Of a stretch of DNA of 64,000 bases, positions 2,038-60,359 are shown piece after piece. The stretch is from Nitrosopumilus sp. (GTDB taxonomy: Archaea > Thermoproteota > Nitrososphaeria > Nitrososphaerales > Nitrosopumilaceae), in NCBI GenBank assembly GCA_965249555.1, contig OZ252243.1, forward strand, positions 2,016,001-2,080,000. The letters run 5' to 3'. Made by a program: the position numbers and the translations under genes. The first letter of the stretch is position 1. Each line of letters opens with the position of its first letter. The notes beneath the pieces are model-generated. The model had not been told where the DNA came from. It did no database searches and worked only from the letters and a program-made list of their open reading frames with translations.

Positions 2038-2219
2038 CATCAAAATTTTGGTATTTTTTTATAATGACATATGGTTAAGTAGAGATTTCACTTAGTATCT
2101 TTGGTTTTCATTTTATTCCCTTCTCTTTAAAAATAAAGAAAAAGTGGAAAACCTTTCTATGTGTCTATTAGATTAAAGAAATTTTTACCAGATGCGGATT
2201 TCTCAGAGATGCATTTCAC

Positions 2220-2358
2220 AGACGTTATACGAAATCTTTTTCATATCTTGTGATGTATACCTACTGTTGGGCCTGAGAGTTGAATGAATATTGCCATGTA
2301 CAAGGGCGTTACACAGACTAACTCAAAGTGAGCGGAAAACAAAATACCACATAGATGG
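2220..2358 (+). mobile_element. IS110/IS1111-type element B, left-end fragment with partial bridge-like RNA
   Basis: 2218-2358 matches the reverse complement of 53120-53260 with 3 mismatches; core AG at 2220-21; sub-terminal IR ATACGAAATC at 2227-36. Confidence 0.7.
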
Positions 2359-10197: not shown

Positions 10198-10460
10198 TTA
10201 AAAAGAATCTTTGGATTTACGCCTATTAGATAAATTGAAAAGGTTTGCACCTGTAATAAATTTCTCAATTCCTGCATCTTTGAGTCTACTTTCAATCAAA
10301 GAATATGCTCTTTTAGCCACATCACAACCTAACCATCTCCTACCCAATCTTTCTGCCGCTAAACAGGCAGTGGCACAACCGCAAAAAGGATCAAACACAG
10401 TTTCACCAACATCACTACTACTTTCAATTACTCTCTCTAGTAATGCAAGAGGTTTTTGTG
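10198..10460 (-). pseudogene. C-terminal fragment of an N4/N6 DNA methyltransferase
   Basis: QKPLALLERVIESSSDVGETVFDPFCGCATACLAAERLGRRWLGCD (SAM-binding motif I); N-terminal part absent. Confidence 0.85.
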
Positions 10461-10490
10461 ATCCCTATAACTTCACTGCACCTCAGACAA

Positions 10491-13139
10491 ATGTTTAAAT
10501 CTAATGTTTTTTACCAAAGATGCGTGTCCAAAGTGATACAGGGTATTTTCTCATTACTGATAATTTCTATAGCTGTCTTCTCAACTGATTATGCCTTTGC
10601 TGACGAAGTCATAGAAGAGCCTAAACGACCAATAATTAATACATTTGAAGTTTATGTTAGTGATAGTTTTTTTATTGAACCTGTAATACCTAAACAACCA
10701 GTAATTAATACAGACCATACTAGTGTTGCACCAGTTGTCAGTGGCACTTCCTACATATTGACATCTATATCCTTCATGCCACTAGTACCGGGTACATTTA
10801 CATTTGCATATCTCGATACCCAAGCCACATTTCTTGCTTATGAGAGCGATGTAGGTAAAATAAATGAATTCTTGATTCAAGCTAATTATGATCTTATAAA
10901 TTATGTTACCATTTCATATGACGGTGTTGTAGTTCAGGAGAAGTATATAGATCGTGGAATTGGTTCAGGACAAGTCACTTCAACAAGTATTGCACTTGAA
11001 TGGGATGTAGTAGATAATGCCGTAGGATATACGTTATACAAATTGGAGTTTATGCAATCAGACCAACAGGAGGTAGTAGTTCCAGGTACGAGTTTCTTAG
11101 TAAAAACTAGTGATACATCATTTACTGATACTGGTCTAAACCCAGACACAACTTACTTTTACATTGTAGAATCATATACTATTGATAATGTAAAGAATCA
11201 CAGAACATTACAGGTAACCACGGCATCTGCAGATTTTGATACCTGGCAAGCTCCAACTGCAACCCCGTCACTTTTAACAGTTGTAAGAAATGCTGATGAT
11301 TCCATCACGTTAAATTGGGATGCCTGGGAAGATGATGGTGTTGTAGAATTTACCAGTTTTATTGTTGAAATTGAAAGTTCAACTAAACACAATCGTATCA
11401 TCTTAGATGATCAAATACCCACTACTGTTACCAGTTTTACCATTTCTACTAATCATGAACATTTTGATGATGTGAATAATAGTGACAGAATTTTTGTACT
11501 TGCTGGTGATGATTTCTATAATTATATTTTGGCTGCCCCAGTGCCAGACCAAGTAGACCCAAGAACATTACAAGTACCGCCTGTTGAAAATGTAGTTGAA
11601 AATGAAAACATTGTTGAAATCGCATCAGTAATTAATACAGACCATACTAGTGTTGCACCAGTTGTCAGTGGCGGTTCCTACATATTGACATCTATATCCT
11701 TCATGCCACTAGTACCGGGTACATTTACATTTGCATATCTCGATACCCAAGCCACATTTCTTGCTTATGAGAGCGATGTAGGTGAAATAAATGAATTCTT
11801 GATTCAAGCTAATTATGATCTTATAAATTATGTTACCATTTCATATGACGGTGTTGTAGTTCAGGAGAAGTATATAGATCATGGAATTGGTTCAGGACAA
11901 GTCACTTCAACAAGTATTGCACTTGAATGGGATGTAGTAGATAATGCCGTAGGATATACGTTATACAAATTGGAGTTTATGCAATCAGACCAACAGAAGG
12001 TAGTTCCAGGTACGAGTTTCTTAGTAAAAACTAGTGATACATCATTTACTGATACTGGTCTAAACCCAGACACAACTTACTTTTACATTGTAGAATCATA
12101 TACTATTGATAATGTAAAGAATCACAGAACATTAAAGGTAACCACGGCATCTGCAGATTCTGATACCTGGCAAGCTCCAACTGCAACCCCGTCACTTTTA
12201 ACAGTTGTAAGAAATGCTGATGATTCCATCACGTTAAATTGGGATGCCTGGGAAGATGATGGTGTTGTAGAATTTACCAGTTTTATTGTTGAAATTGAAA
12301 GTTCAACTAAACACAATCGTATCATCTTAGATGATCAAATACCCACTACTGTTACCAGTTTTACCATTTCTACTAATCATGAACATTTTGATGATGTGAA
12401 TAATAGTGACAGAATTTTTGTACTTACTGCTGATGGTTTCTATAATTATATTTTGGCTGCCCCAGTGCCAGACCAAGTAGACCCAAGAACATTACAAGTA
12501 CCGCCGGTACTACCTGCCCCCTCAAAACCTCAAACCCTAGTAGCATCTGCTAATCACAACTCTGTAACTTTATCTTGGAATGAATCCAATGATGATACAA
12601 TTACAGGCTACAAGATATTATGCCGAACCCCTGCAACTGAATCCAGTCTCAAAACCTGTATTGAAAATACCGAAACAGTCAGTAACAGTTACACTGTTGA
12701 TGATTTAAAATCCGATACGGTCTATGTCTTTCGCGTAATTGCACTTAACGAGTCCGAAGAATCACCACGCTCCAATTTTGTTAAATTATCAACTGTTAGC
12801 GAACCCGTACCTTCCAACTCTGTTAAACCCCCAACTATTACTAGCGAACCTCCATCAAAACCTCAAAACTTGGAAGCATCTGCTAATAATAATACAGTAA
12901 AATTATCCTGGACTGATCCACAAGATTCGACCATAGATGGTTACAACATCTTGTGTAAAGAGCGTGGTACCAAAGACTTGGCAGTATGTAATACCTATAC
13001 TCTAAGTGATGACTCGCCAAGGGATTCATTTACTATCGAGTCATTAGATGATGGCAAATATGTCTACAGAGTAGTTGCATTTAATGAAGCAGGAGATAGC
13101 AAACGATCCAACTACGTACGAGTCAATATCGGCCAGTAA
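10491..13139 (+). CDS. secreted/surface fibronectin type III repeat protein
   Basis: Hydrophobic signal-like segment ending AFA; FN3 motifs (LEW...Y...GLNPDTTY, LSW...GYKI...YVFRVIALN); start uncertain. Confidence 0.88.
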   Translation: MFKSNVFYQRCVSKVIQGIFSLLIISIAVFSTDYAFADEVIEEPKRPIINTFEVYVSDSFFIEPVIPKQPVINTDHTSVAPVVSGTSYILTSISFMPLVPGTFTFAYLDTQATFLAYESDVGKINEFLIQANYDLINYVTISYDGVVVQEKYIDRGIGSGQVTSTSIALEWDVVDNAVGYTLYKLEFMQSDQQEVVVPGTSFLVKTSDTSFTDTGLNPDTTYFYIVESYTIDNVKNHRTLQVTTASADFDTWQAPTATPSLLTVVRNADDSITLNWDAWEDDGVVEFTSFIVEIESSTKHNRIILDDQIPTTVTSFTISTNHEHFDDVNNSDRIFVLAGDDFYNYILAAPVPDQVDPRTLQVPPVENVVENENIVEIASVINTDHTSVAPVVSGGSYILTSISFMPLVPGTFTFAYLDTQATFLAYESDVGEINEFLIQANYDLINYVTISYDGVVVQEKYIDHGIGSGQVTSTSIALEWDVVDNAVGYTLYKLEFMQSDQQKVVPGTSFLVKTSDTSFTDTGLNPDTTYFYIVESYTIDNVKNHRTLKVTTASADSDTWQAPTATPSLLTVVRNADDSITLNWDAWEDDGVVEFTSFIVEIESSTKHNRIILDDQIPTTVTSFTISTNHEHFDDVNNSDRIFVLTADGFYNYILAAPVPDQVDPRTLQVPPVLPAPSKPQTLVASANHNSVTLSWNESNDDTITGYKILCRTPATESSLKTCIENTETVSNSYTVDDLKSDTVYVFRVIALNESEESPRSNFVKLSTVSEPVPSNSVKPPTITSEPPSKPQNLEASANNNTVKLSWTDPQDSTIDGYNILCKERGTKDLAVCNTYTLSDDSPRDSFTIESLDDGKYVYRVVAFNEAGDSKRSNYVRVNIGQ
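10699..12505 (+). repeat. near-identical intragenic duplication (10699-11581 and 11626-12505)
   Basis: About 880-bp units with a few substitutions and one 3-nt indel. Confidence 0.95.
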
Positions 13140-41770: not shown

Positions 41771-41973
41771 TTCTCTTTTTTCATCTCGTTTATTCTAGTT
41801 AGCATTCTTGCAATATCATGACGTAGTGGTTTTAGTTTACCACTTTGTTTTCTTAGTGTACCTTTAGCTCCATCAACTCTAAGTTTTTTAAGCTCACTTC
41901 TTGTCTCTTGAATCTTACTTTTGAGATCTTTTTCGTTTAACTGTTTAATGGTTTTCATACTAAGTCTTGTCAT
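41767..41973 (-). CDS. rpl29: 50S ribosomal protein L29
   Basis: R.DIARMLT.INE motif; operon position. Confidence 0.95.
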
Positions 41974-42992
41974 TTCAATTTGGCCTCTTCTTCCTCTAAT
42001 GTTTCAATACTTTTCATTTTTTCTTCTTCAATAACAATTTGCTCTGTTTCTGATTTTACCTTACTTTTTGCATCATCACTTGTCTTTACTGCATCATCAC
42101 TTGTCTTTACTGCATCATCACTTGTCTTTACTGCATCATCACTTGTCTTTACTGCATCATCACTTGTCTTTACTGCATCATCACTTGTCTTTACTGCATC
42201 ATCACTTGTCTTTACTGCATCATCACTTGTCTTTACTGCATCATCACTTGTCTTTACTGCATCATCACTTGTCTTTACTGCATCATCACTTGTCTTTACT
42301 GCATCATCACTTGTCTTTACTGCATCATCACTTGTCTTTACTGCATCATCACTTGTCTTTACTGTTTTTTCTTCTTGAACTTGTTTTGTCTTCTTTACTT
42401 TTTTATCTTTCATTTCAAATTCCGGAATAAATTTTTCTTTTCTTGCAATTCTAATTCGAATACCAATTAACCCCATTGCAGTTTGTACGTGTGCAATGTC
42501 TTCATCAACAATAATTTCTGCGTGATGTCCTGCTCTTGGTAAAATTCCTGCTGTATGTTTTTCAAATGCTGAACGATCCCCTCTGAGTTTTCCAGAAATT
42601 GTTATTTGAACTCCCATTGCACCGCCTTCCATAATTTGTTTCAATGTCCACATCGTCGCTCTTCTGAATGCAGTCCCTCGCTCAATATGTGATGCCATTC
42701 TATTACACATCACACTTGGAGCTAGTTCCGGTTTCTCAATTTCTACTACTGAAATTTGAGGACTCTTTAATCCAAAATCTGTTTCAAGTTTTTCAGTGAG
42801 GGCTCTGATTCCCGTACCTTTTCTTCCGATAACTATTCCCGGTCTTGTTACATGTAATGCAACTCTTGTACCTGTTGGTGTTTTTGATATCTCTGCATGT
42901 GAAAAACCTGCATCTTTAATTGCTTCTCTTAGATAATCTTTGAGAAGCATCATGTTATAGTTATCTTTGATTACATTTTTGATTGCTGACAT
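41970..42992 (-). CDS. rps3: 30S ribosomal protein S3 with a (VKTSDDA)14 insertion
   Basis: [16 protein letters not shown] and SGKL motifs. Confidence 0.97.
42069..42362. repeat. perfect tandem repeat, 14 x 21 bp
   Basis: Unit TGCATCATCACTTGTCTTTAC; 294 bp; no spacers. Confidence 0.97.
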
Positions 42993-51914: not shown

Positions 51915-51979
51915 GCGTTAAAATTGCAATTTTTCCTTTAAAGCATTCTTCCATATTATTACCTAATACAATGTATGTA

Positions 51980-53063
51980 TAGCGAAGAGTCAAAGTTCGT
52001 GAACTAAAAATCATCAAAACACTTTTTGATCACCACACACAATGAAACACATGGACAAGTTAGAACAGCTTGAAGCAGCATACAAAAAGGAAAACTCCAA
52101 AGATATAGTCAGGATGCTTGCAGTACTAATGGTTCTCAAAGAGGGTAAGGAATTAGAGTACGCACAAACACTACACCGCTGTACAAACTGGGTACGCAAA
52201 TGGGTTGATCGTTTTAAAGTAGATGGCCTATATGATCACCCAAGGAGTGGAAGACCATGTGTAATCCCAAAGAAGCAAATGGATTCTATTATGTTCAAAA
52301 TTATGTTGACACTATTTACACCTGTAATGCTGCAGCAGACAATATTTGATTCTACTGGAATAAAATTTCACATAACACATGTCAGAAAAATAATGCACCA
52401 GTATGGAATGTATGGAATGTCTGCTAAAACTGCACAAAAATATCACGTCAATCATGCAAGTGTAACAGCTGTGCGCAGCTGGGCAGCAACGCATGAAAAA
52501 GAGAATTCCACACCTAAAAAAGAGTGGATTCACCATTGCAATGCTTGATGAGGCATTCTTTGTTAGGGATGTAAAGGCAGGACGAAAATATTGGTCACCA
52601 GTTGCCAAAAGAATATTTCTCCCATATGTGGGAAACCATGAAAGTTTGGCAGTGTATGGAACAATTACAATCAATGGAGACCAACTGTTTAGAATTTATA
52701 AAAAATTCAACGGTATAACATTTGTAGAATATCTAAAAGAGCTACACTACAAATATGGTAAAATTGCGTTGATACTTGACAGGGCATCAGTGCAGCAATC
52801 AAAGAAGGTCAGGGACTTTTTGACAGATAATCCAGATGTTAAACTGATTTGGCTACCAAAAGGACCCACCATATCTAAACATGATAGAGCAGTGTTGGAA
52901 AATAGGCAAGCATGTGTTGTTGGTATCAGAATATTATGCAATGTTTGCAATAATGAATAATGCAGTGTCACAATACTTTGGAACAAAAAAATTCAAACTT
53001 GATGTTGTTAATTATATTTTTAGAAATCCTGCAAAGATGTTCACGAACTTTTGATCGTCGCTA
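51980..53063 (+). mobile_element. IS630-family element, copy 1 (frameshifted transposase 52042 to about 53050)
   Basis: IRs TAGCGAAGAGTCAAAGTTCGTGAAC / GTTCACGAACTTTTGATCGTCGCTA flanked by TA; HTH...RSGRP, DE, ILDRA and YLNMIE motifs. Confidence 0.93.
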
Positions 53064-53065
53064 TA

Positions 53066-53258
53066 CCATCACCCTCCTTTTTGATCAAATTGCCTGATCT
53101 AGCGGAATGCTCCCATTTGCCATCTATGTGGTATTTTGTTTTCCGCTCACTTTGAGTTAGTCTGTGTAACGCCCTTGTACATGGCAGTAATAATTCAACT
53201 CTCAGGCCCAACAGTAGGTATACATCACAAGATATGAAAAAGATTTCGTATAACGTCT
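53066..53258 (-). mobile_element. IS110/IS1111-type element B, left end up to the SD and start codon
   Basis: Core AG, sub-terminal IR ATACGAAATC, structured non-coding region, then AAGGAGGGTG ATGG interrupted by IS630 at TA. Confidence 0.7.
53092..53207 (-). ncRNA. candidate bridge/seek RNA of element B
   Basis: Closing stem GCCTGA/TCAGGC around two hairpins with internal loops (GAGTTG/TAACTC; AGCGGAA/TTCCGCT); a loop holds ATGGGAG matching the element's right end. Confidence 0.6.
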
Positions 53259-53350
53259 GTTAAGAGATTGATCATCAGAAACTGGGGGGCCTAAATACAT
53301 CAGGAATAATGAAATGGAATTGATTTTATACTACGTTTGATCAAAATATA

Positions 53351-53963: not shown

Positions 53964-53999
53964 GTATGTATTGATTTGTGCGTGAAGGTTGATACATAC
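53964..53999 (-). mobile_element. 36-bp IS66-derived mini-element
   Basis: Reverse complement GTATGTATCAACCTTCACGCACAAATCAATACATAC equals the IS66 left end fused to the right IR. Confidence 0.75.
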
Positions 54000-54011
54000 T
54001 TCACATGGATA

Positions 54012-55095
54012 TAGCGACGATCAAAAGTTCGTGAACATCTTTGCAGGATTTCTAAAAATATAATTAACAACATCAAGTTTGAATTTTTTTGTTCCAAAGT
54101 ATTGTGACACTGCATTATTCATTATTGTAAACATTGCATAATATTCTGATACCAACAACACATGCTTGCCTATTTTCCAACACTGCTCTATCATGTTTAG
54201 ATATGGTGGGTCCTTTTGGTAGCCAAATCAGTTTAACATCTGGATTATCTGTCAAAAAGTCCTTGACCTTCTTTGATTTGTGCACTGATGCCCTGTCAAG
54301 TATCAACGCAATTTTACCATATTTGTAGTGTAGCTCTTTTAGATATTCTACAAATGTTATACCGTTGAATTTTTTATAAATTCTAAACAGTTGGCCCCCA
54401 TTGATTGTAATTGTTCCATACACTGCCAAACTTTCATGGTTTCCCACATATGGGAGAAATATTCTTTTGGCAACTGGTGACCAATATTTTCGTCCTGCCT
54501 TTACATCCCTAACAAAGAATGCCTCATCAAGCATTGCAATGGTGAATCCACTCTTTTTTAGGTGTGGAATTCTCTTTTTCATGCGTTGCTGCCCAGCTGC
54601 GCACAGCTGTTACACTTGCATGATTGACGTGATATTTTTGTGCAGTTTTAGCAGACATTCCATACATTCCATACTGGTGCATTATTTTTCTGACATGTGT
54701 TATGTGAAATTTTATTCCAGTAGAATCAAATATTGTCTGCTGCAGCATTACAGGTGTAAATAGTGTCAACATAATTTTGAACATAATAGAATCCATTTGC
54801 TTCTTTGGGATTACACATGGTCTTCCACTCCTTGGGTGATCATATAGGCCATCTACTTTAAAACGATCAACCCATTTGCGTACCCAGTTTGTACAGCGGT
54901 GTAGTGTTTGTGCGTACTCTAATTCCTTACCCTCTTTGAGAACCATTAGTACTGCAAGCATCCTGACTATATCTTTGGAGTTTTCCTTTTTGTATGCTGC
55001 TTCAAGCTGTTCTAACTTGTCCATGTGTTTCATTGTGTGTGGTGATCAAAAAGTGTTTTGATGATTTTTAGTTCACGAACTTTGACTCTTCGCTA
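54012..55095 (-). mobile_element. IS630-family element, copy 2 (inverted)
   Basis: Near-identical reverse complement of 51980-53063, flanked by TA. Confidence 0.93.
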
Positions 55096-55247
55096 TATCA
55101 ACCTTCGCGCACAAATCAATAGCTATATGTGAATACAAAAAGAAGGAATTCAGATAGCATAAAAAATGAACCCAGGTTCAGGACTCGTAATTCATCGTCC
55201 TCAAAGAAAAGTCCAAAGAGACAGATTAGGGGGAAAAAGACAAGGGC

Positions 55248-56231
55248 ATGTATGTTGGCATTGACTTGCACAAGAAATTTCTTCAAGTGGCAACAATGGA
55301 TAATGACGGAAAGATATTACAAAACATAAAAGTTGAGAACACTCATGAATCAATCAGGAAACATTTTACAGACATACAGATTCATGCCAATATTGTCATG
55401 GAATCATCATCAGTATAACACGTATGGATTTCTTACAGATGAATTGGGATACAAAAACGTGACACTCTCAAACCCGTATCTTACAAAGACAATAGCCGCA
55501 TCAAAAAAAACAGACAAGATTGATGCCAGGATACTGGCAGATCTTTTGCGTGGAGGATACATTGCAACATGCCATATTCCAAACAAAAAGATAGTAAAAC
55601 ATCGCCAGCTGGTAAGATACAGAAAAAAACTCATTCAGTGGAGAACATCTCTCAAAAATTCTGTCCATGGAATTTTGTTACAGGAGGGAATCAAGATACC
55701 CGGAGTCACATTCACTGTAACATACAACAAAAGACTCACCTCCCTAGGTGACTATCGCATAGATGGATTTGTACGACAGATAGACTATCTTAATCTGCAA
55801 ATTGCAGATATTAATTCAAGAGTGTATGCTGCTGTAAATGCCAGTCCTGATGCCATGATAATAAAATCAATACCCGGAATTGGTGACTACTCGTCACTAG
55901 TTATCGCATCAGAAATTGCAAATATTAGCAGATTCAATGACTCTCACAAGTTATGCGCATATGCAGGAGTCGTGCCATCAGTCAGAAACTCTGCAGATTA
56001 CACCATGGCAGCATAACCAAAAGAGGAAGCATGACACTACGATGGGTCCTTATCCAATGCGTCCATTCTCATGCAATACATGCCAAGAACAGTGACATTA
56101 CAAAATTTTACAATCGCATTAAAAAGAAGAGAGGCTCATCAAAAGATGCAGTTGCCGCATCATCCCAGATTCTGTGAGTGATTTACTGGATGCTAAAAGA
56201 GAGGAGAGAATTTGTACAGAATTACAGTTAG
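55248..56231 (+). pseudogene. IS110 DEDD transposase (two frameshifts and one TGA)
   Basis: MYVGIDLHK, VMES, KKTDKIDA, SIPGIG, YAGVVPSVRNS and G.ITKRGS..LRW motifs across frames. Confidence 0.9.
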
Positions 56232-56400
56232 GACTGCAAGTCGCGTTTGGTATGTTGAGGGACAAGCCTCGGTTGATAACTGCGAATAGGTCCTAACGAA
56301 GGGATGAAGATAGCATTGAGGAAGAAGCCTCGTATGGATACATGTCCGTCATCTTTTGTTTGAAAGCATTCCCTAGCGAAAGCTATGCCTTGGGATGTAA
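56227..56400 (+). ncRNA. candidate bridge/seek RNA of element A
   Basis: Two internal-loop hairpins, each capped by GAGG-N6-CCTC; guides match the target and donor junctions; third hairpin TAGC-GAAA-GCTA. Confidence 0.78.
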
Positions 56401-56450
56401 AAAAGTAGGAAATGTATAAAAACAATTCACATGGATACATACCTAAACAG

Positions 56451-57913
56451 GTATGTATCAACCTTCACGCACAAATCAACACTATTACACAAAAAGATCT
56501 AAGATCAACTAAATCATCATACAAAACATGTCAGGTTGTGGTCATGAGAAAATCATCATACAGCTACAAAAAAAGACAAAACAACAAGACGAAGTGATAA
56601 AACAACTACAAGCAGAGATAAAACAACAAAAACTAATCACAGGGAATCTCATAGAATCAAACAAGGAACTACAAAAAAGACTGTCATATTATGAGAATGC
56701 GCACTCTCCGCCATCAAAGAATTCCCTTGAATGGAGAAAGCAAAAAAGACAACACAGACAGCCAGGCAAATCAAGACGTGGTGGAATAGCAGGACACGTT
56801 GGCAAGACACAGAAATTCAGACCAACTAGCACCAAACACCACAGATCAGATGCATGTCCCAAATGCGGTAGTGAAAATATTCATCAAACCAAAACCTGCA
56901 AAAGGATAATGGTTGAGATTCCTCCACCAACACCCTACGGTATAACTGAGCATGTTTTGAATCAATACATCTGCATGGACTGTTCTGATAATTTTCAAAC
57001 CACGGGAAACCTTCCACTACATGGATGTTTTGATGGTTCAGTGATACGTGAGGTAGTCTCACTGTTCTCAAAGAGATTGACATACGATGCTATCAGAACC
57101 ACACTCTATGAAAGATATGGATTAGAAATCAGCAATACAACCGTACAATCCATTCTTCGCAACGGTAGTGTGATGTTAGAGTCATTTTACAATGACATCC
57201 ACAGCGAAATCGTGACTGAAAAGATTCTCGGAATCGATGAGACCGGATTTTCAATTGATGGAAATACTGGATGGATGTGGGTTGCAAGAAGCAAGACTAG
57301 TGCACAGTATGCCTTGGAGTACAGCAGAGGTGCCAATGTTCTAAAAAAGTACTGGAAGAAATTCAAAGGAACCCTAGTGTCTGACGGATATGCTCCGTAC
57401 AGGACAGTATTTTGTGATAACACAAAGCAGAGATGCACCGCACACCTGCAGCGCGATGCCAAATATCTGGCAATAAAATCAAAGGACAAAAAGGCCAGGA
57501 TTCTATATGAGAAACTCTCAGGGATGCTAGGTCATGCCAGGGTTTGGAGTGTAGGTAATCGTCATACAAAACGGCGGGAAACGTACAGGAATGATTTACT
57601 AAAACAGCTGGACCGTATCATTGCACGATATTTGAAAGGTGATACGGAGATGGTTCAGTTTGGCAAGAAGCTAAAGACTGCAAGGAACAGCATGTTTACG
57701 TTTGTCATGGATGGTGATGTCCCGTCAACTAACAATGATGCAGAGAATTCCATTCGAAAGTGCGTGATGCAGAGGAATGTTCGCGGGCAGATGAAGAGTG
57801 ATCAGGGCATGAGGATGATCTCAGTCTTTCTCACATGCTTTGAGACATGGAGAATAAGGGAATTGAACATGTTTTCTGAGATGGCAAAATACATCTAAGT
57901 GCTTAATACATAC
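56451..57913 (+). mobile_element. IS66-family element (single-ORF, ISBst12-like), intact
   Basis: IRs GTATGTAT(C/T)AA; 8-bp TSD CTAAACAG at 56443-50 and 57914-21. Confidence 0.93.
56528..57898 (+). CDS. IS66-family transposase
   Basis: N.HSPPS, CPKCG, IDETG, LVSDGY..Y, QRCTAHL.R and TNNDAE.SIR motifs. Confidence 0.95.
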   Translation: MSGCGHEKIIIQLQKKTKQQDEVIKQLQAEIKQQKLITGNLIESNKELQKRLSYYENAHSPPSKNSLEWRKQKRQHRQPGKSRRGGIAGHVGKTQKFRPTSTKHHRSDACPKCGSENIHQTKTCKRIMVEIPPPTPYGITEHVLNQYICMDCSDNFQTTGNLPLHGCFDGSVIREVVSLFSKRLTYDAIRTTLYERYGLEISNTTVQSILRNGSVMLESFYNDIHSEIVTEKILGIDETGFSIDGNTGWMWVARSKTSAQYALEYSRGANVLKKYWKKFKGTLVSDGYAPYRTVFCDNTKQRCTAHLQRDAKYLAIKSKDKKARILYEKLSGMLGHARVWSVGNRHTKRRETYRNDLLKQLDRIIARYLKGDTEMVQFGKKLKTARNSMFTFVMDGDVPSTNNDAENSIRKCVMQRNVRGQMKSDQGMRMISVFLTCFETWRIRELNMFSEMAKYI

Positions 57914-58497: not shown

Positions 58498-58953
58498 ATG
58501 ATTCCTGAAGAAGAAATTCGAAACAACCTTGTTGATATGGGATACATATTGGCAACACCAAGAGCACTTTTTCCAAGTTATTACAAATTGAATGATGGAA
58601 CTATTGCTAGAGCATTAATCAACATAAATTATCTGATCGCCGATCCACAAGCTCCACAGGGTTTTGCAGTAAACCAAACCAATTCCGTTACTGCATTTGT
58701 ACCAAAAGAAAAGCGACATCCTGAATTATTTCAACCATATAATACTGCAGAGTTATTGAAAGACCCTATAGATGAAGATGTGGAATTTGAAGTTTTACGA
58801 GAAAACTTTAGCGTTTATGATCTCAGTAATGATATGATTCTTAGTGTTAAGACAGTTGTAGGTCAAATCATAAAATCAAAATATCATACTAGAGACGGAG
58901 AACCAATCTATAGTATTAACACAAATCCAATCATCAAAGCAAAAAAGAAATAA
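58498..58953 (+). CDS. hypothetical protein
   Basis: 151-aa ORF; two similar Y.L.DG/YDLSND beta units and a GEPIY motif. Confidence 0.7.
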   Translation: MIPEEEIRNNLVDMGYILATPRALFPSYYKLNDGTIARALININYLIADPQAPQGFAVNQTNSVTAFVPKEKRHPELFQPYNTAELLKDPIDEDVEFEVLRENFSVYDLSNDMILSVKTVVGQIIKSKYHTRDGEPIYSINTNPIIKAKKK

Positions 58954-59036
58954 AATAGAATTTTTTAGGCATGAGACATATTCAAAATCATTGTTAATTA
59001 AAAAAGAACGTCAATTTCTTACTGAAAAAACGTATG

Positions 59037-59544
59037 TATCCATGTGAATTGTTTTTATACATTTCCCACTTTTTTACATCCAGAGGAATAGCTTTCGCTA
59101 GGGAATGCTTTCAAACAAAAGATGACGGACATGTATCCATACGAGGCTTCTTCCTCAATGCTATCTTCATCCCTTCGTTAGGACATATTCGCAGTTATCA
59201 ACCGAGGCTTGTCCCTCAACATACCAAACGCGACTTGCAGTCCTAACTGTAATTCTGTACAAATTCTCTCCTCTTTTTTAGCATCCAGTAAATCACTCAC
59301 AGAATCTGGGATGATGCGGCAACTGCATCTTTTGATGAGCCTCTCTTCTTTTTAATGCGATTGTAAAATTTTGTAATGTCACTGTTCTTGGCATGTATTG
59401 CATGAGAATGGACGCATTGGATAATGACCCATCGTAGTGTCATGCTTCCTCTTTTGGTTATGCTGCCATGGTGTAATCTGCAGAGTTTCTGACTGATGGC
59501 ACGACTCCTGCATATGCGCATAACTTGTGAGAGTCATTGAATCT
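59037..59544 (-). mobile_element. IS110 element A, partial copy 2 (right end, RNA and transposase C-terminus)
   Basis: Reverse complement of about 55930-56437 with a few substitutions. Confidence 0.9.
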
Positions 59545-59670
59545 CCCATACGAAATCGTCTCCAATTACTACGGACACTTTTTAGCGTGCTTTGCTGAAT
59601 CAGGACATCTCAGATATGCCTTGCATCTTATACTTTTGTTGTGTCAGTTCATGATTTTGTGTACGATACA
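59543..59670 (-). mobile_element. IS110/IS1111-type element B, right-end fragment
   Basis: Minus strand GATTTCGTAT-GGG-AG (IR to the ATACGAAATC of the left ends), preceded by a putative transposase tail YRTQNHELTQQKYK. Confidence 0.6.
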
Positions 59671-59713
59671 CTTTCAGAATTGCAAAGAGAAGAGGAAGTG
59701 GAAATGTGTGTGC

Positions 59714-60113
59714 TCATCTTTTCCCAATCTTGCCCCGGATAAACCGGTACATCTTCTCTGCTGATTTTTTTGGTATTGCATCAATTGTACCGTTTGTGTT
59801 TCTTCCCCAGAAGATGTGATTCCTTTCACTCTTTGACATTTCCGTCATTCCCCTCACAAAGAAGACCAGCGATGATGAGAACAGTCCCTTCTCCAGTCTG
59901 ATGTTTGTGATGGTATTGTAATAGTACTCTTCAATGTTTTCCCCAAAGCCCAGCCGTATCAGGTTTCGGATAATTACCCTCTTTTCTGTAAGATATACGG
60001 TGTTTGGGTTGATTAGTGCCGCACCACCGGGCAGTACCCTTGACTGTCTTGCAGACATTATTAGTCTCGCCAGAATCCAGCCGGTCTCTGATCTTTTCTA
60101 CCTCTGAGCTCAT
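59714..60113 (-). pseudogene. frameshifted bacterial-type PH-domain protein
   Basis: L..GE start in one frame; YLTEKRVII...I.NIRLEKGLFSS in another. Confidence 0.6.
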
Positions 60114-60359
60114 GATGTACCCTGTATGTTTTGTATAAAAGGTATATCTTGCAGTTTAGGGCAGCACACCAGATATAAGATCCTGGATTATCTTGTATGC
60201 CCCAAGCAGCGCATCATGTAACATGTCATATGATATGGCAAATACTCCCGTATACCACAGGACTATCACTATACCAAGAAACACACAGAGCTTGAGAATC
60301 CCCCACATGTATACATACAATACAATCCGTTTTTAACTGGGTTGAATGGAATTTTTGGC

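What the first reader, a model, noticed from the sequence alone, without database searches (positions are those of the whole stretch)
59535..59670. IS110-B right end interrupts the IS110-A transposase at a guide-matching site
Copy 2 of element A is cut exactly where the minus strand reads GATTTCGTAT-GGG-AG-ATTCAATG. The right flank ATTCA is the reverse complement of the TGAAT guide in the B RNA at 2285-89. The uninterrupted site in copy 1 is TTAGC-AG-ATTCA (near 55925-36), which supplies the AG core. This suggests a chain in which B inserts into A and A inserts into IS66. The left-guide match here is weak (CAG only).
Basis: partly seen in the sequence, partly recalled or inferred. Interest (0 to 1): 0.7.

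Follow-up and report, generated by a model that had tools for sequence, protein, structure and literature searches.

The report
RNA-guided jumping gene inside another
The right end of one RNA-guided insertion sequence sits inside the transposase gene of a second, related one, at a spot that matches the first element's guide RNA; this is a clear natural example of a behaviour already described for this family.

Summary
Window 59545-59681 (minus strand) is the last 137 nt of a 1.29-kb IS110/IS1111-type element (B). It abuts position 833 of a second IS110-family element (A, 59544-59032) at a shared AG core.

B carries an upstream non-coding RNA with two arms. The two sides of the first internal loop are hypervariable. 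The 3' side (V2) equals the left flank plus the core. Both covary with the flanks across relatives in Nitrosopumilaceae genomes (0 of 20000 and 0 of 5000 shuffles reach the observed match) and within this genome.

The A site, TT(G/A)AC-AG-ATTCA, encodes I-(D/N/S)-R-F of the Transposase_20 domain. It matches existing B guide variants: TGAAT on the right, and TTGACAG or TTAACAG on the left. The same B-end|A junction occurs at 6 of 35 B right ends. These lie in several A and B sub-lineages, so A was hit more than once.

A has its own guide loop, which specifies the tip of an IS66-like terminal repeat, so the proposed chain holds.

This is a new member of a known kind: ISEc21 targets IS3 transposase codons in the same way. 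All 7 full-length B copies examined have broken transposase frames.

The parts
59545..59681 (-). Right-end fragment of element B (B positions 1149-1287). It ends ...GATTTCGTAT-GGG.
   Evidence: 93.5% identity to the B reference copy, reaching its last base; aligned with 34 other B right ends.
59543..59544 (-). Core dinucleotide AG (CT on the + strand), shared by the B end and the A site.
   Evidence: one AG in empty sites and one at each junction in filled sites; 33 of 35 right ends are followed by AG.
59032..59544 (-). Element A copy 2. Only the 3' part is present (A positions 833-1345): the end of the transposase gene plus the 3' non-coding region with A's guide loop.
   Evidence: (inverted repeat I2), and (guide blocks are present in the row 2075244).
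59672..59697 (+). A 26-nt scrap of B (about B 1069-1094) in inverted orientation, joined at a 10-bp palindrome (TTTCAGAATT/AATTCTGAAA). It marks where the B remnant is broken.
   Evidence: query 128-153 matches five other B copies at 100% in the opposite orientation; B sequence.
55119..56442 (+). Element A copy 1, full length, with a frameshifted transposase. The uninterrupted B target is at 55925-55936 (TTAGC-AG-ATTCA).
56250..56278 (+). Target loop of A's own guide RNA: GTATGT (complement of ACATAC), the hairpin GAGGGACAAGCCTC, then GGTTGAT (left target plus core).
   Evidence: two hypervariable blocks across 23 A copies; the block matches its own right flank, for example 9/9, 9/9 and 8/8.
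2213..2358 (+). Solo B left-end fragment (B 1-146). It carries the target loop: V1 is 2285-2292 (TGAATATT) and V2 is 2309-2316 (TTACACAG). It is cut inside the second (donor) arm and has no transposase.
53063..53260 (-). Second B left-end fragment (B 6-202).
   Evidence: (I3).
56451..57898 (+). IS66-family element. The terminal repeat GTATGTATCAACCTTCACGCACAAATCAAC is at 56451-56482 and the transposase ORF is at 56528-57898.
   Evidence: (PF03050, E 5.5e-41).

Best explanation
Element B is an IS110/IS1111-type insertion sequence of ammonia-oxidising archaea. Its transposase is steered by a non-coding RNA made from the 200 nt upstream of the gene.

The RNA has an outer stem and two arms, and each arm has an internal loop. 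[quoted passage not shown] In the second loop the 3' side equals B's own right end plus the core.

Recombination at the AG core places B between the two halves without duplicating the target. One guide combination present in this genome (V1 TGAAT, V2 TTGACAG or TTAACAG) specifies TT(G/A)AC-AG-ATTCA. That sequence exists only in the codons I-(D/N)-R-F of the transposase gene of the unrelated-lineage IS110-family element A. B therefore landed there repeatedly and split A's Transposase_20 domain.

The window holds the decayed remnant of one such event. It consists of the last 137 nt of B joined to the 3' 513 nt of A. The rest of B and the 5' part of A were lost to later rearrangement.

Shown: the anatomy, the core, the guide-flank covariation, and the recurrence of the junction. 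Inferred: that the RNA is made and bound, and that the guides can act in trans.
For: B ends and core.
- 26 left and 35 right ends align to one boundary.
- Three repeat families and A supply empty sites with a single AG and filled sites with an AG at each junction.
- One copy (G000 2207461-2208785) is a simple insertion into ACTTGAT-AG-TATTCAAG. Its own V1 matches 8/8 and its own V2 7/8.

RNA structure. On 17 sequences from this genome and relatives, 92.7% of cells are paired. 10 of 25 pairs have changes on both sides. 0 of 500 shuffles are as good, and slid controls give 24-43% paired.

Guide covariation across relatives.
- V2 against its own left flank: 60 of 84 positions in 12 distinct guides. 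Shuffles average 29.0 with a maximum of 54, and 0 of 20000 reach the observed value.
- V1 against its own right flank: summed longest complementary run 57, against 37.0 for shuffles with a maximum of 53, and 0 of 5000 reach it.

Guide match within the genome.
- 8 of 25 distinct right flanks match a resident V1 5-mer exactly (background 1.3%), and 15 of 25 match within one mismatch (background 13.7%).
- 10 of 14 distinct left flanks match a resident V2 5-mer exactly (background 0.9%), and 14 of 14 match within one mismatch.

The A site.
- 6 of 35 B right ends and 1 of 26 left ends lie at the same nucleotide of A.
- The B copy whose left end is in A carries V1 TGAATATT and V2 TTTGACAG, and its left flank is TATTGAC-AG.
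- TTGACAGATTCA occurs 2 times and TTAACAGATTCA 5 times in the genome, always in A. AGATTCA occurs 878 times, only 25 of them in A, yet all 6 AGATTCA-flanked B ends are in A.

Independence of the hits.
- On the A tree the interrupted copies need 6 changes, the same as shuffled labels, and well-supported branches force at least 2 origins.
- The B ends at the six junctions carry at least 3 different variant patterns that are shared with B copies outside A.

Family. Both transposases have PF01548 plus PF02371 and pass NF033542 (216 and 226 bits against a cut-off of 140).
Against: - No complete A-left/B/A-right insertion survives. There are six right junctions but only one left junction, and that B copy has a non-A right flank. 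The simple-insertion history is therefore inferred.
- ATTCA fits TGAAT only if the RNA base next to the core-pairing CU is skipped. In the contiguous register the same guide specifies TATTCA, which is the target actually used in another repeat family.
- The left half of the window's own target is gone. Its closest relative, copy 1, reads TATTAGC, which is 2 mismatches from any resident V2.
- Only 3 of 12 B copies have a V2 that fits their own left flank perfectly, so guide action in trans or later recombination has to be assumed.
- All 7 full-length B copies examined have broken frames, so no activity can be shown today.
- No RNA data exist for the guide.
- The A tree is poorly resolved (15 of 19 inner branches open), and gene conversion between A copies could mimic independent hits.
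Confidence: 0.85

Rival explanations
1. There was one ancient B insertion into one A copy. The composite (B end plus the A 3' part) was then spread by duplication, by A's own movement or by recombination. The six junctions would then be copies of one event and would say nothing about preference.
For: All six junctions share exactly the same breakpoint, and all retain only the A 3' part. The A tree is weakly resolved, with 15 of 19 inner branches open. G000 1584119 and 1839072 share a 1.85-kb repeat around the junction.
Against: The A parts differ by 8-10% from each other. Two of them pair with uninterrupted A copies on well-supported or fairly supported branches (96/94 and 91/80). The label needs 6 changes, no fewer than shuffled labels. 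The B ends carry at least 3 variant patterns shared with non-A B copies, and the window's has its own indel variant. Flanks outside the composite differ in 4 of the 6 loci. An A 3' fragment alone cannot move as an A element.
Confidence: 0.1
2. The window junction did not form where it now lies. It was brought there, or homogenised, by recombination between inverted A copies that flank the IS66-like element. The guided insertion happened in another A copy.
For: The two A arms in the window are 99% alike, while A copies in general are 90-95% alike. They sit in inverted orientation 2.6 kb apart. Many B copies have flanks from two different targets, and two identical inverted B copies share one left flank. 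This shows frequent recombination between copies.
Against: This changes only the local history, not the nature of the junction. No reciprocal product was found in the window.
Confidence: 0.3
3. The junction is an unguided accident (illegitimate recombination or a deletion end-point), and the TGAAT/ATTCA complementarity is chance.
For: A 5-nt match on its own is weak. The register needs a skipped base.
Against: The B side ends at the exact element terminus with the AG core. The same nucleotide of A is used 7 times. Guide-flank covariation is strong both across species and within the genome.
Confidence: 0.02

Closest known systems
ISEc21 (IS110 family; Siddiquee et al. 2024, PMC11187229, passages read)
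   Same: It has an upstream non-coding region that encodes a seekRNA. Its natural target is a conserved stretch of codons inside the transposase gene of another IS family (the second D of DDE in IS3-family elements). It inserts at a fixed position and orientation without target duplication.
   Different: In ISEc21 the top-strand match lies 3' of the bottom-strand match, whereas in B it lies 5'. B's victim belongs to its own superfamily (the IS110-type Transposase_20 motif I-D/S-R-F). B is archaeal and has subterminal inverted repeats.
IS1111-group elements with seekRNA (ISEc11, ISPa11, ISKpn4; same paper)
   Same: [quoted passage not shown] Subterminal inverted repeats are present. The terminal extensions are 7 nt on the left and 3 nt on the right: B has AGACGTT before ATACGAAATC, and GGG after GATTTCGTAT.
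   Different: In that group the non-coding region is normally downstream of the transposase gene; B's is upstream. The paper names ISMtsp17 as such an exception. B's repeat is 10 bp perfect, against the usual 11-13 bp.
IS621 bridge RNA (Durrant et al. 2024, PMC11208160, passages read; structure 8wt6)
   Same: It has two internal loops, one for the target and one for the donor. The left guide pairs with the bottom strand including the core and the right guide pairs with the top strand. A core dinucleotide is shared. The B transposase matches the IS621 protein at E 7e-12 over residues 158-292.
   Different: [quoted passage not shown] No Rfam 15 family matches the B or A RNA. B's core is AG. For most B targets the right guide pairs with a one-base offset.
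[quoted passage not shown]
   Same: This is the model for element A: an IS1111-type element whose target is the tip of another transposon's terminal repeat.
   Different: A's target is an IS66-like repeat in an archaeon. Only one clean insertion of that kind (G000 709346) was found here.

Membership tests
IS110 family RNA-guided transposase (NCBIfam NF033542; Pfam PF01548 + PF02371) | A DEDD (RuvC-like) N-terminal domain plus a Transposase_20 C-terminal domain. | tested here: met
   B (309-codon open stretch of copy 2207461): PF01548 at E 7.7e-19, PF02371 at E 7.2e-26, NF033542 at 216 bits (cut-off 140). A (331 aa): 2.9e-25, 1.6e-21 and 226 bits.
IS110 family RNA-guided transposase (NCBIfam NF033542; Pfam PF01548 + PF02371) | Site-specific insertion with no target duplication beyond a shared core dinucleotide. 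| tested here: met
   Empty versus filled sites in four repeat families: one AG when empty, and an AG at both junctions when filled.
IS110 family RNA-guided transposase (NCBIfam NF033542; Pfam PF01548 + PF02371) | A non-coding-region RNA whose loop sides base-pair with both strands of the target. | tested here: met
   V1 and V2 covary with the flanks across relatives and within the genome. The stems are supported by compensatory changes.
IS110 family RNA-guided transposase (NCBIfam NF033542; Pfam PF01548 + PF02371) | A second loop that recognises the element's own joined ends (the donor). | tested here: inconclusive
   The 3' side, (A/G)AAUGGGAG, equals the right end ATGGG-AG, and it changes together with that end in relative L026 (GGCTG in both). 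No convincing complement to the left end was found on the 5' side.
IS110 family RNA-guided transposase (NCBIfam NF033542; Pfam PF01548 + PF02371) | The RNA is transcribed and bound by the transposase, and a circular intermediate forms. | not testable with these tools
   No RNA run was listed for this sequence.
IS1111 subgroup | Subterminal inverted repeats (usually 11-13 bp) with terminal extensions of 7 bp (left) and 3 bp (right). | tested here: met
   The left end is AG-ACGTT then ATACGAAATC. The right end is GATTTCGTAT then GGG. The repeat is 10 bp perfect. The count of 7 includes one copy of the core, following the convention quoted.
IS1111 subgroup | The long non-coding region lies downstream of the transposase gene. 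| tested here: not met
   B's 200-nt non-coding region is upstream. The paper lists such exceptions. Element A does have it downstream.
IS1111 subgroup | [quoted passage not shown] | tested here: met
   V1 (complement of the right flank) lies 5' of V2 (identical to the left flank plus the core). A has the same order.
IS1111 subgroup | The transposase clusters with IS1111 over its full length. | not tested
   No IS1111 reference sequence was compared.
IS621-type bridge RNA | [quoted passage not shown] | tested here: not met
   The order is reversed in both loops of B. The definition comes from passages of PMC11208160.

The most novel reading that the evidence does not exclude
Within one archaeal genome an RNA-guided insertion sequence has split into a population of copies that differ almost only in their guide loops. 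There are 7 V1 and 6 V2 variants in left ends that are otherwise 95-99% identical. Each guide pair is tuned to a different resident repeat, and the guides work in trans as a shared pool. One pair has been retuned to a conserved catalytic-domain motif of a rival IS110-family transposase, so that B spreads by knocking out A. This would be element-against-element competition, layered three deep (B into A, A into the IS66-like end).
Probability: 0.3. Interest if true: 0.65.

Novelty: new member of a known kind. Interest (0 to 1): 0.45.

Why it matters
RNA-guided (bridge or seek RNA) recombinases are being developed as genome-writing tools. Natural cases show which rules of guide-target pairing evolution actually uses.

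This genome offers three things:
- An archaeal family that combines IS1111-type ends and guide order with an upstream RNA gene.
- Two pairing registers for the right guide.
- Many naturally reprogrammed guide variants with their targets side by side in one chromosome.

It also shows that such elements can home in on each other's transposase genes. This bears on how insertion sequences limit one another and why they pile up in nests.

Tried and rejected
- Rfam 15. No family reached threshold for the B left end or for the A 3' region. The only hit was rliG at 17.5 bits against a gathering score of 55.
- Thermodynamic folding. Folding the truncated window copy (2213-2400) was no better than shuffles (z -0.51). 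RNAalifold on near-identical genome copies gave an unhelpful structure. The structure used in the report was derived by eye and then tested on relatives.
- Contiguous pairing of V1 with core plus right flank. It explains only 1 of 25 distinct flanks exactly, so it was rejected as the general register and the one-base-offset register was adopted.
- Complementarity between the 5' side of the second loop and the B left end. Nothing convincing was found by inspection.
- B left-end DNA in other genomes. It was not found in the 40 other genomes searched, 24 of them in the same genus.
- RNA evidence. No RNA holder was listed.
- Contigs of four DNA runs laid on 58700-60300. Among the pieces shown, none bridged 59544/59545 with 31 nt on both sides, and 1237 pieces were not shown. 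This gives no verdict on whether the junction is present elsewhere.
- The empty site at G000 1990311 (GTTTGAC-AG-ATTTG). I checked whether it lies in another IS110 gene. It does not; it lies just upstream of a 325-aa ORF of another kind.
- The supplementary tables of the two 2024 papers (target lists) could not be opened. They may already list related archaeal elements.

Full report
**What is at the coordinates.** The + strand at 59535-59557 reads CATTGAAT-CT-CCC-ATACGAAATC, so the minus strand reads GATTTCGTAT-GGG-AG-ATTCAATG as reported. A 513-nt inverted repeat, 99% complementary, joins 55930-56442 to 59032-59544 and stops at 59544.

The left arm is the 3' part of a full-length IS110-family element, A. 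A copy 1 spans 55119-56442. Its broken frames carry DEDD_Tnp_IS110 and Transposase_20. In that copy the uninterrupted site is TTAGC(55925-29)-AG-ATTCA(55932-36).

Beyond 59544, window 59545-59681 aligns at 93.5% to positions 1149-1287 of a 1287-nt repeat, B, of which the genome holds 60 aligned pieces. B encodes its own DEDD plus Transposase_20 protein. Both proteins pass NCBIfam NF033542, 'IS110 family RNA-guided transposase' (216 and 226 bits, cut-off 140). The B protein also matches the IS621 transposase structure 8wt6 (E 7e-12).

On the minus strand the order is B(1149-1287) then A(833-1345), in the same orientation. The B side ends at the element's true terminus and the A side starts inside the gene, so B entered A and not the reverse. 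The inner end of the B remnant is a 10-bp palindrome followed by a 16-26-nt inverted scrap of B at 59672-59697.

**Ends, core and targets of B.** Aligning 26 left and 35 right ends gives ...N7-AG|ACGTT-ATACGAAATC... on the left and ...GATTTCGTAT-GGG|AG-N... on the right. AG follows 33 of the 35 right ends.

Several flanks lie in other repeats, so empty sites are available:
- ACTTGAT-AG-TATTCAAG (three empty copies; filled at G000 2207461-2208785 and elsewhere)
- ATTACAC-AG-TTA(C/T)AATAC
- ATTTTAC-AG-GA(T/C)TAT
- GTTTGAC-AG-ATTTGTTG
- the A site, TATT(A/G)(G/A/C)C-AG-ATTCAA

Each empty site has one AG and each filled site has one AG at both junctions. AG is therefore the crossover core and nothing else is duplicated.

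B has 10-bp subterminal inverted repeats. Its terminal extensions are 7 nt (counting the core) and 3 nt. This is the pattern given for the IS1111 group by Siddiquee et al. 2024 (PMC11187229, passage).

**The guide RNA.** The 200 nt upstream of the B transposase are 95-99% identical among copies, except for two short blocks:
- V1: GTTGAA[TGAATACT / TGAATATT / TGGATACT / TGGTTACT / AGGTTACT / TTATTACT]GCC
- V2: GCGT[TTGATAG / TTAACAG / TACACAG / TTGACAG / TTCACAG / CCAACAG]ACT

V1 and V2 are the two sides of an internal loop. The loop is closed by GAGUU/AACUC and capped by the GCC...GGC hairpin. A second arm (AGCGGAA/UUCCGCU) carries (A/G)AAUGGGAG on its 3' side, which equals the B right end plus the core. 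An outer stem (GCCUGA/UCAGGC) encloses both arms.

I fetched relatives of the B transposase. There were 34 loci, all in Nitrosopumilaceae or other thaumarchaeal and archaeal assemblies. 19 of them include the 5' part, and these were aligned. On 17 sequences the proposed structure has 92.7% of cells paired. 10 of 25 pairs have changes on both sides. 0 of 500 shuffles are as good, and slid controls give 24-43% paired.

**Covariation with the flanks.**
- Across relatives I dropped L022 (no homologous left end), L019 and L017 (left boundary absent or aberrant). That left 17 rows with 12 distinct V2. V2 equals its own left flank at 60 of 84 positions. Shuffled pairings average 29.0, with a maximum of 54, and 0 of 20000 reach 60. 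Examples are TCTGTAG, CCGGCAG, TCAGTAG, CGTAAGAG and TGTATGAG.
- For V1 there were 15 loci with a right end and 11 distinct V1. One right end, L024, was mislocated by my pattern and was left in. The summed longest complementary run to the locus's own core plus right flank is 57. Shuffles average 37.0, with a maximum of 53, and 0 of 5000 reach 57. Relatives whose V1 ends ...CUU pair contiguously from the core (AGAATAG, AGTTCC, AGTTTAC, AGGTTAC).
- B and its nearest relatives have a V1 that ends ...ACU. They mostly pair GGGUU with AACCC, skipping the A next to the core-pairing CU.
- Within this genome, 35 right ends collapse to 25 distinct flanks. 8 match a resident V1 5-mer exactly in that offset register (background 1.3%, binomial p 9e-10), and 15 match within one mismatch (background 13.7%). 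The contiguous register explains 1 exactly.
- 26 left ends collapse to 14 distinct flanks. 10 match a resident V2 5-mer exactly (background 0.9%), and 14 match within one mismatch (background 8.8%).
- Caveat: these tests draw both guides and flanks from one related family, so the p-values are only indicative.

The order of the guides, top-strand complement first and bottom-strand match second, is the one reported for IS1111-type seekRNAs. It is the reverse of ISEc21 and IS621.

**Does the A site match?**
- Right half: ATTCA is the exact complement of TGAAT, the commonest V1 5-mer, in the offset register. In the contiguous register the same guide specifies TATTCA, which is the target in another repeat family.
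- Left half: the window's own left half is lost. Among the 15 uninterrupted A copies the site reads TATTAGC (6), TATTAAC (5), TATTGAC (3) or TATTACC (1). TTGACAG and TTAACAG are resident V2 variants.
- The one B copy whose left end lies in A (G000 1239177) has left flank TATTGAC-AG, V2 TTTGACAG and V1 TGAATATT.
- TTGACAGATTCA (2 occurrences) and TTAACAGATTCA (5) occur in the genome only inside A. AGATTCA occurs 878 times, 25 of them in A, yet all 6 B right ends followed by AGATTCA are in A.
- The site encodes I-(D/N/S)-R-F within the Transposase_20 match of A.

**One event or several?** The same B-end|A(833) junction is at G000 57116, 1558716, 1584119, 1839072, 2075545 (the window) and 2219667.
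- Outside the composite the flanks differ, except for one pair that shares a 1.85-kb repeat.
- I built a tree of the A 3' parts. It has 22 rows: 7 interrupted, including a B-less fragment at 1661095, and 15 uninterrupted. No rows were dropped, and three truncated copies give long branches. The interrupted label needs 6 changes, as many as shuffled labels, and supported branches force at least 2 origins.
- The window copy sits next to window copy 1.
- The B ends at the junctions carry at least 3 variant patterns that are shared with B copies elsewhere. The window's has its own indel variant.
- I conclude that A was hit more than once. Gene conversion cannot be excluded.

**The chain.** A has the same kind of loop in its 3' non-coding region. 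Two hypervariable blocks flank the hairpin GAGGGACAAGCCTC.
- In the window copies the blocks are GTATGT (56250-55) and GGTTGAT (56272-78). They specify GGTTG-AT-ACATAC.
- The first block is complementary to the copy's own right flank in several copies (9/9, 9/9 and 8/8).
- GAAGGTTGATACATAC is the outer tip of the terminal repeat that starts the IS66-family element at 56451. It occurs 41 times in the genome.
- One A copy (G000 709346) is a clean insertion there.
- B into A into the IS66-like end is therefore supported. Window copy 1, however, is preceded by the first 28 nt of that repeat in the other orientation. 8 of 21 A left ends share this arrangement, and I could not explain it.

**State of the elements.** All 7 full-length B copies examined have interrupted frames. 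The best, 2207461, has a single TAG at codon 18. A has three copies with a 373-codon open frame. Only 3 of 12 B copies have a V2 that fits their own left flank perfectly. Many B copies also have flanks from two different targets. This suggests guides acting in trans (the non-coding region works in trans for ISEc11 and ISEc21; passages), recombination between copies, or both.

**Comparison and novelty.**
- Insertion of an IS110-family element into conserved transposase codons of another IS is already in print. ISEc21 inserts into the second-D codons of IS3-family elements (PMC11187229, passage).
- IS1111-type elements that target transposon terminal repeats are also known (title of Partridge & Hall 2003, seen).
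- A full-text search for IS110 + Nitrosopumilus + insertion sequence gave 3 papers. None was on this by title or abstract.
- What is new here is the family itself: it is archaeal, combines IS1111-type ends and guide order with an upstream RNA gene, and is absent from Rfam 15. Also new are a victim within the same superfamily, the two pairing registers, and the many guide variants in one genome.
- The finding is correct and well worth recording, but it is a new member of a known kind.

Noticed in passing
window 56250-56278 (and the same place in 23 A copies genome-wide): Element A has its own target loop in the 3' non-coding region. Two hypervariable blocks flank the hairpin GAGGGACAAGCCTC. The main variant specifies GGTTG-AT-ACATAC, the tip of the IS66-like terminal repeat. 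Other variants (for example ATGATTGT/TTTTTT) fit their own different flanks.
   Followed up: partly
window 55093-55118; G000 94803, 1239984, 1247674, 1854327, 2194383, 2210591: 8 of 21 A left ends are preceded by the first 28 nt of the IS66-like terminal repeat in forward orientation. The unit [repeat28 + A] therefore starts GTATGTATC and ends GATACATAC, like a small IS66 derivative carrying A. The outer flanks differ between copies, and no target duplication was seen in the one full copy checked. Unexplained.
   Followed up: partly
G000 373204, 547102, 1498349, 1867472, 2109966, 92140, 1913923: The first 145-154 nt of B (the target loop, but not the 3' half of the donor arm) are fused to an unrelated sequence in seven places, mostly inside a 1.1-kb repeat. 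This may be a chimeric or non-autonomous derivative.
   Followed up: no
L021 about 1150-1225 and L033 about 1230-1245 (relatives in other genomes): The left flank of these elements is a partial copy of the element's own left end up to V2 plus the core. The element inserted into the guide-coding DNA of another copy, which necessarily equals the left half of its target.
   Followed up: partly
G000 1661095-1660585: An A 3' fragment starts at the same nucleotide (GATTCAAC...) but is joined to unrelated DNA with no B end. It groups with the interrupted copy at 2219668 (support 100/99). It may be a later deletion or a recombination product.
   Followed up: partly
G000 2219372-2219667, 1498942-1499266, 672477-672698: Short B derivatives consist of a left-end piece (64-132 nt) joined to a right-end piece (171-219 nt). 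They are MITE-like and have no transposase. Right-end fragments recur with breakpoints at B 1069 and 1210.
   Followed up: no
G000 332330-333430 (about 20 copies), 1882460-1882660 (9-14 copies), 490660-490960 (7-8 copies): The other repeated B targets lie in a 1.1-kb repeat and in two short (200-300-nt) repeats. Each is matched by a different V1/V2 pair.
   Followed up: partly
window 51978-53065 and 54010-55097: Two 1088-nt copies of an IS630-like element (HTH plus DDE_3, in two overlapping frames) lie in inverted orientation, 99% alike. They enclose 944 nt that include a B left-end fragment and an IS66-like repeat tip followed by a 12-nt scrap of the A right end (53969-54009).
   Followed up: no
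window 41985-42425 and 10699-12299: A 21-nt tandem repeat (at least 15 units) lies inside the ORF 41970-42992. An internal duplication of about 925 nt (99% alike) lies inside the 898-aa ORF 10443-13139.
   Followed up: no
window 59714-60058 (-) and L049 1566-1967 (-): The gene next to the B remnant encodes a bacterial-PH-domain protein (bPH_3). It has a paralogue, with a similar N-terminus, next to another B target site (G000 1990311).
   Followed up: no
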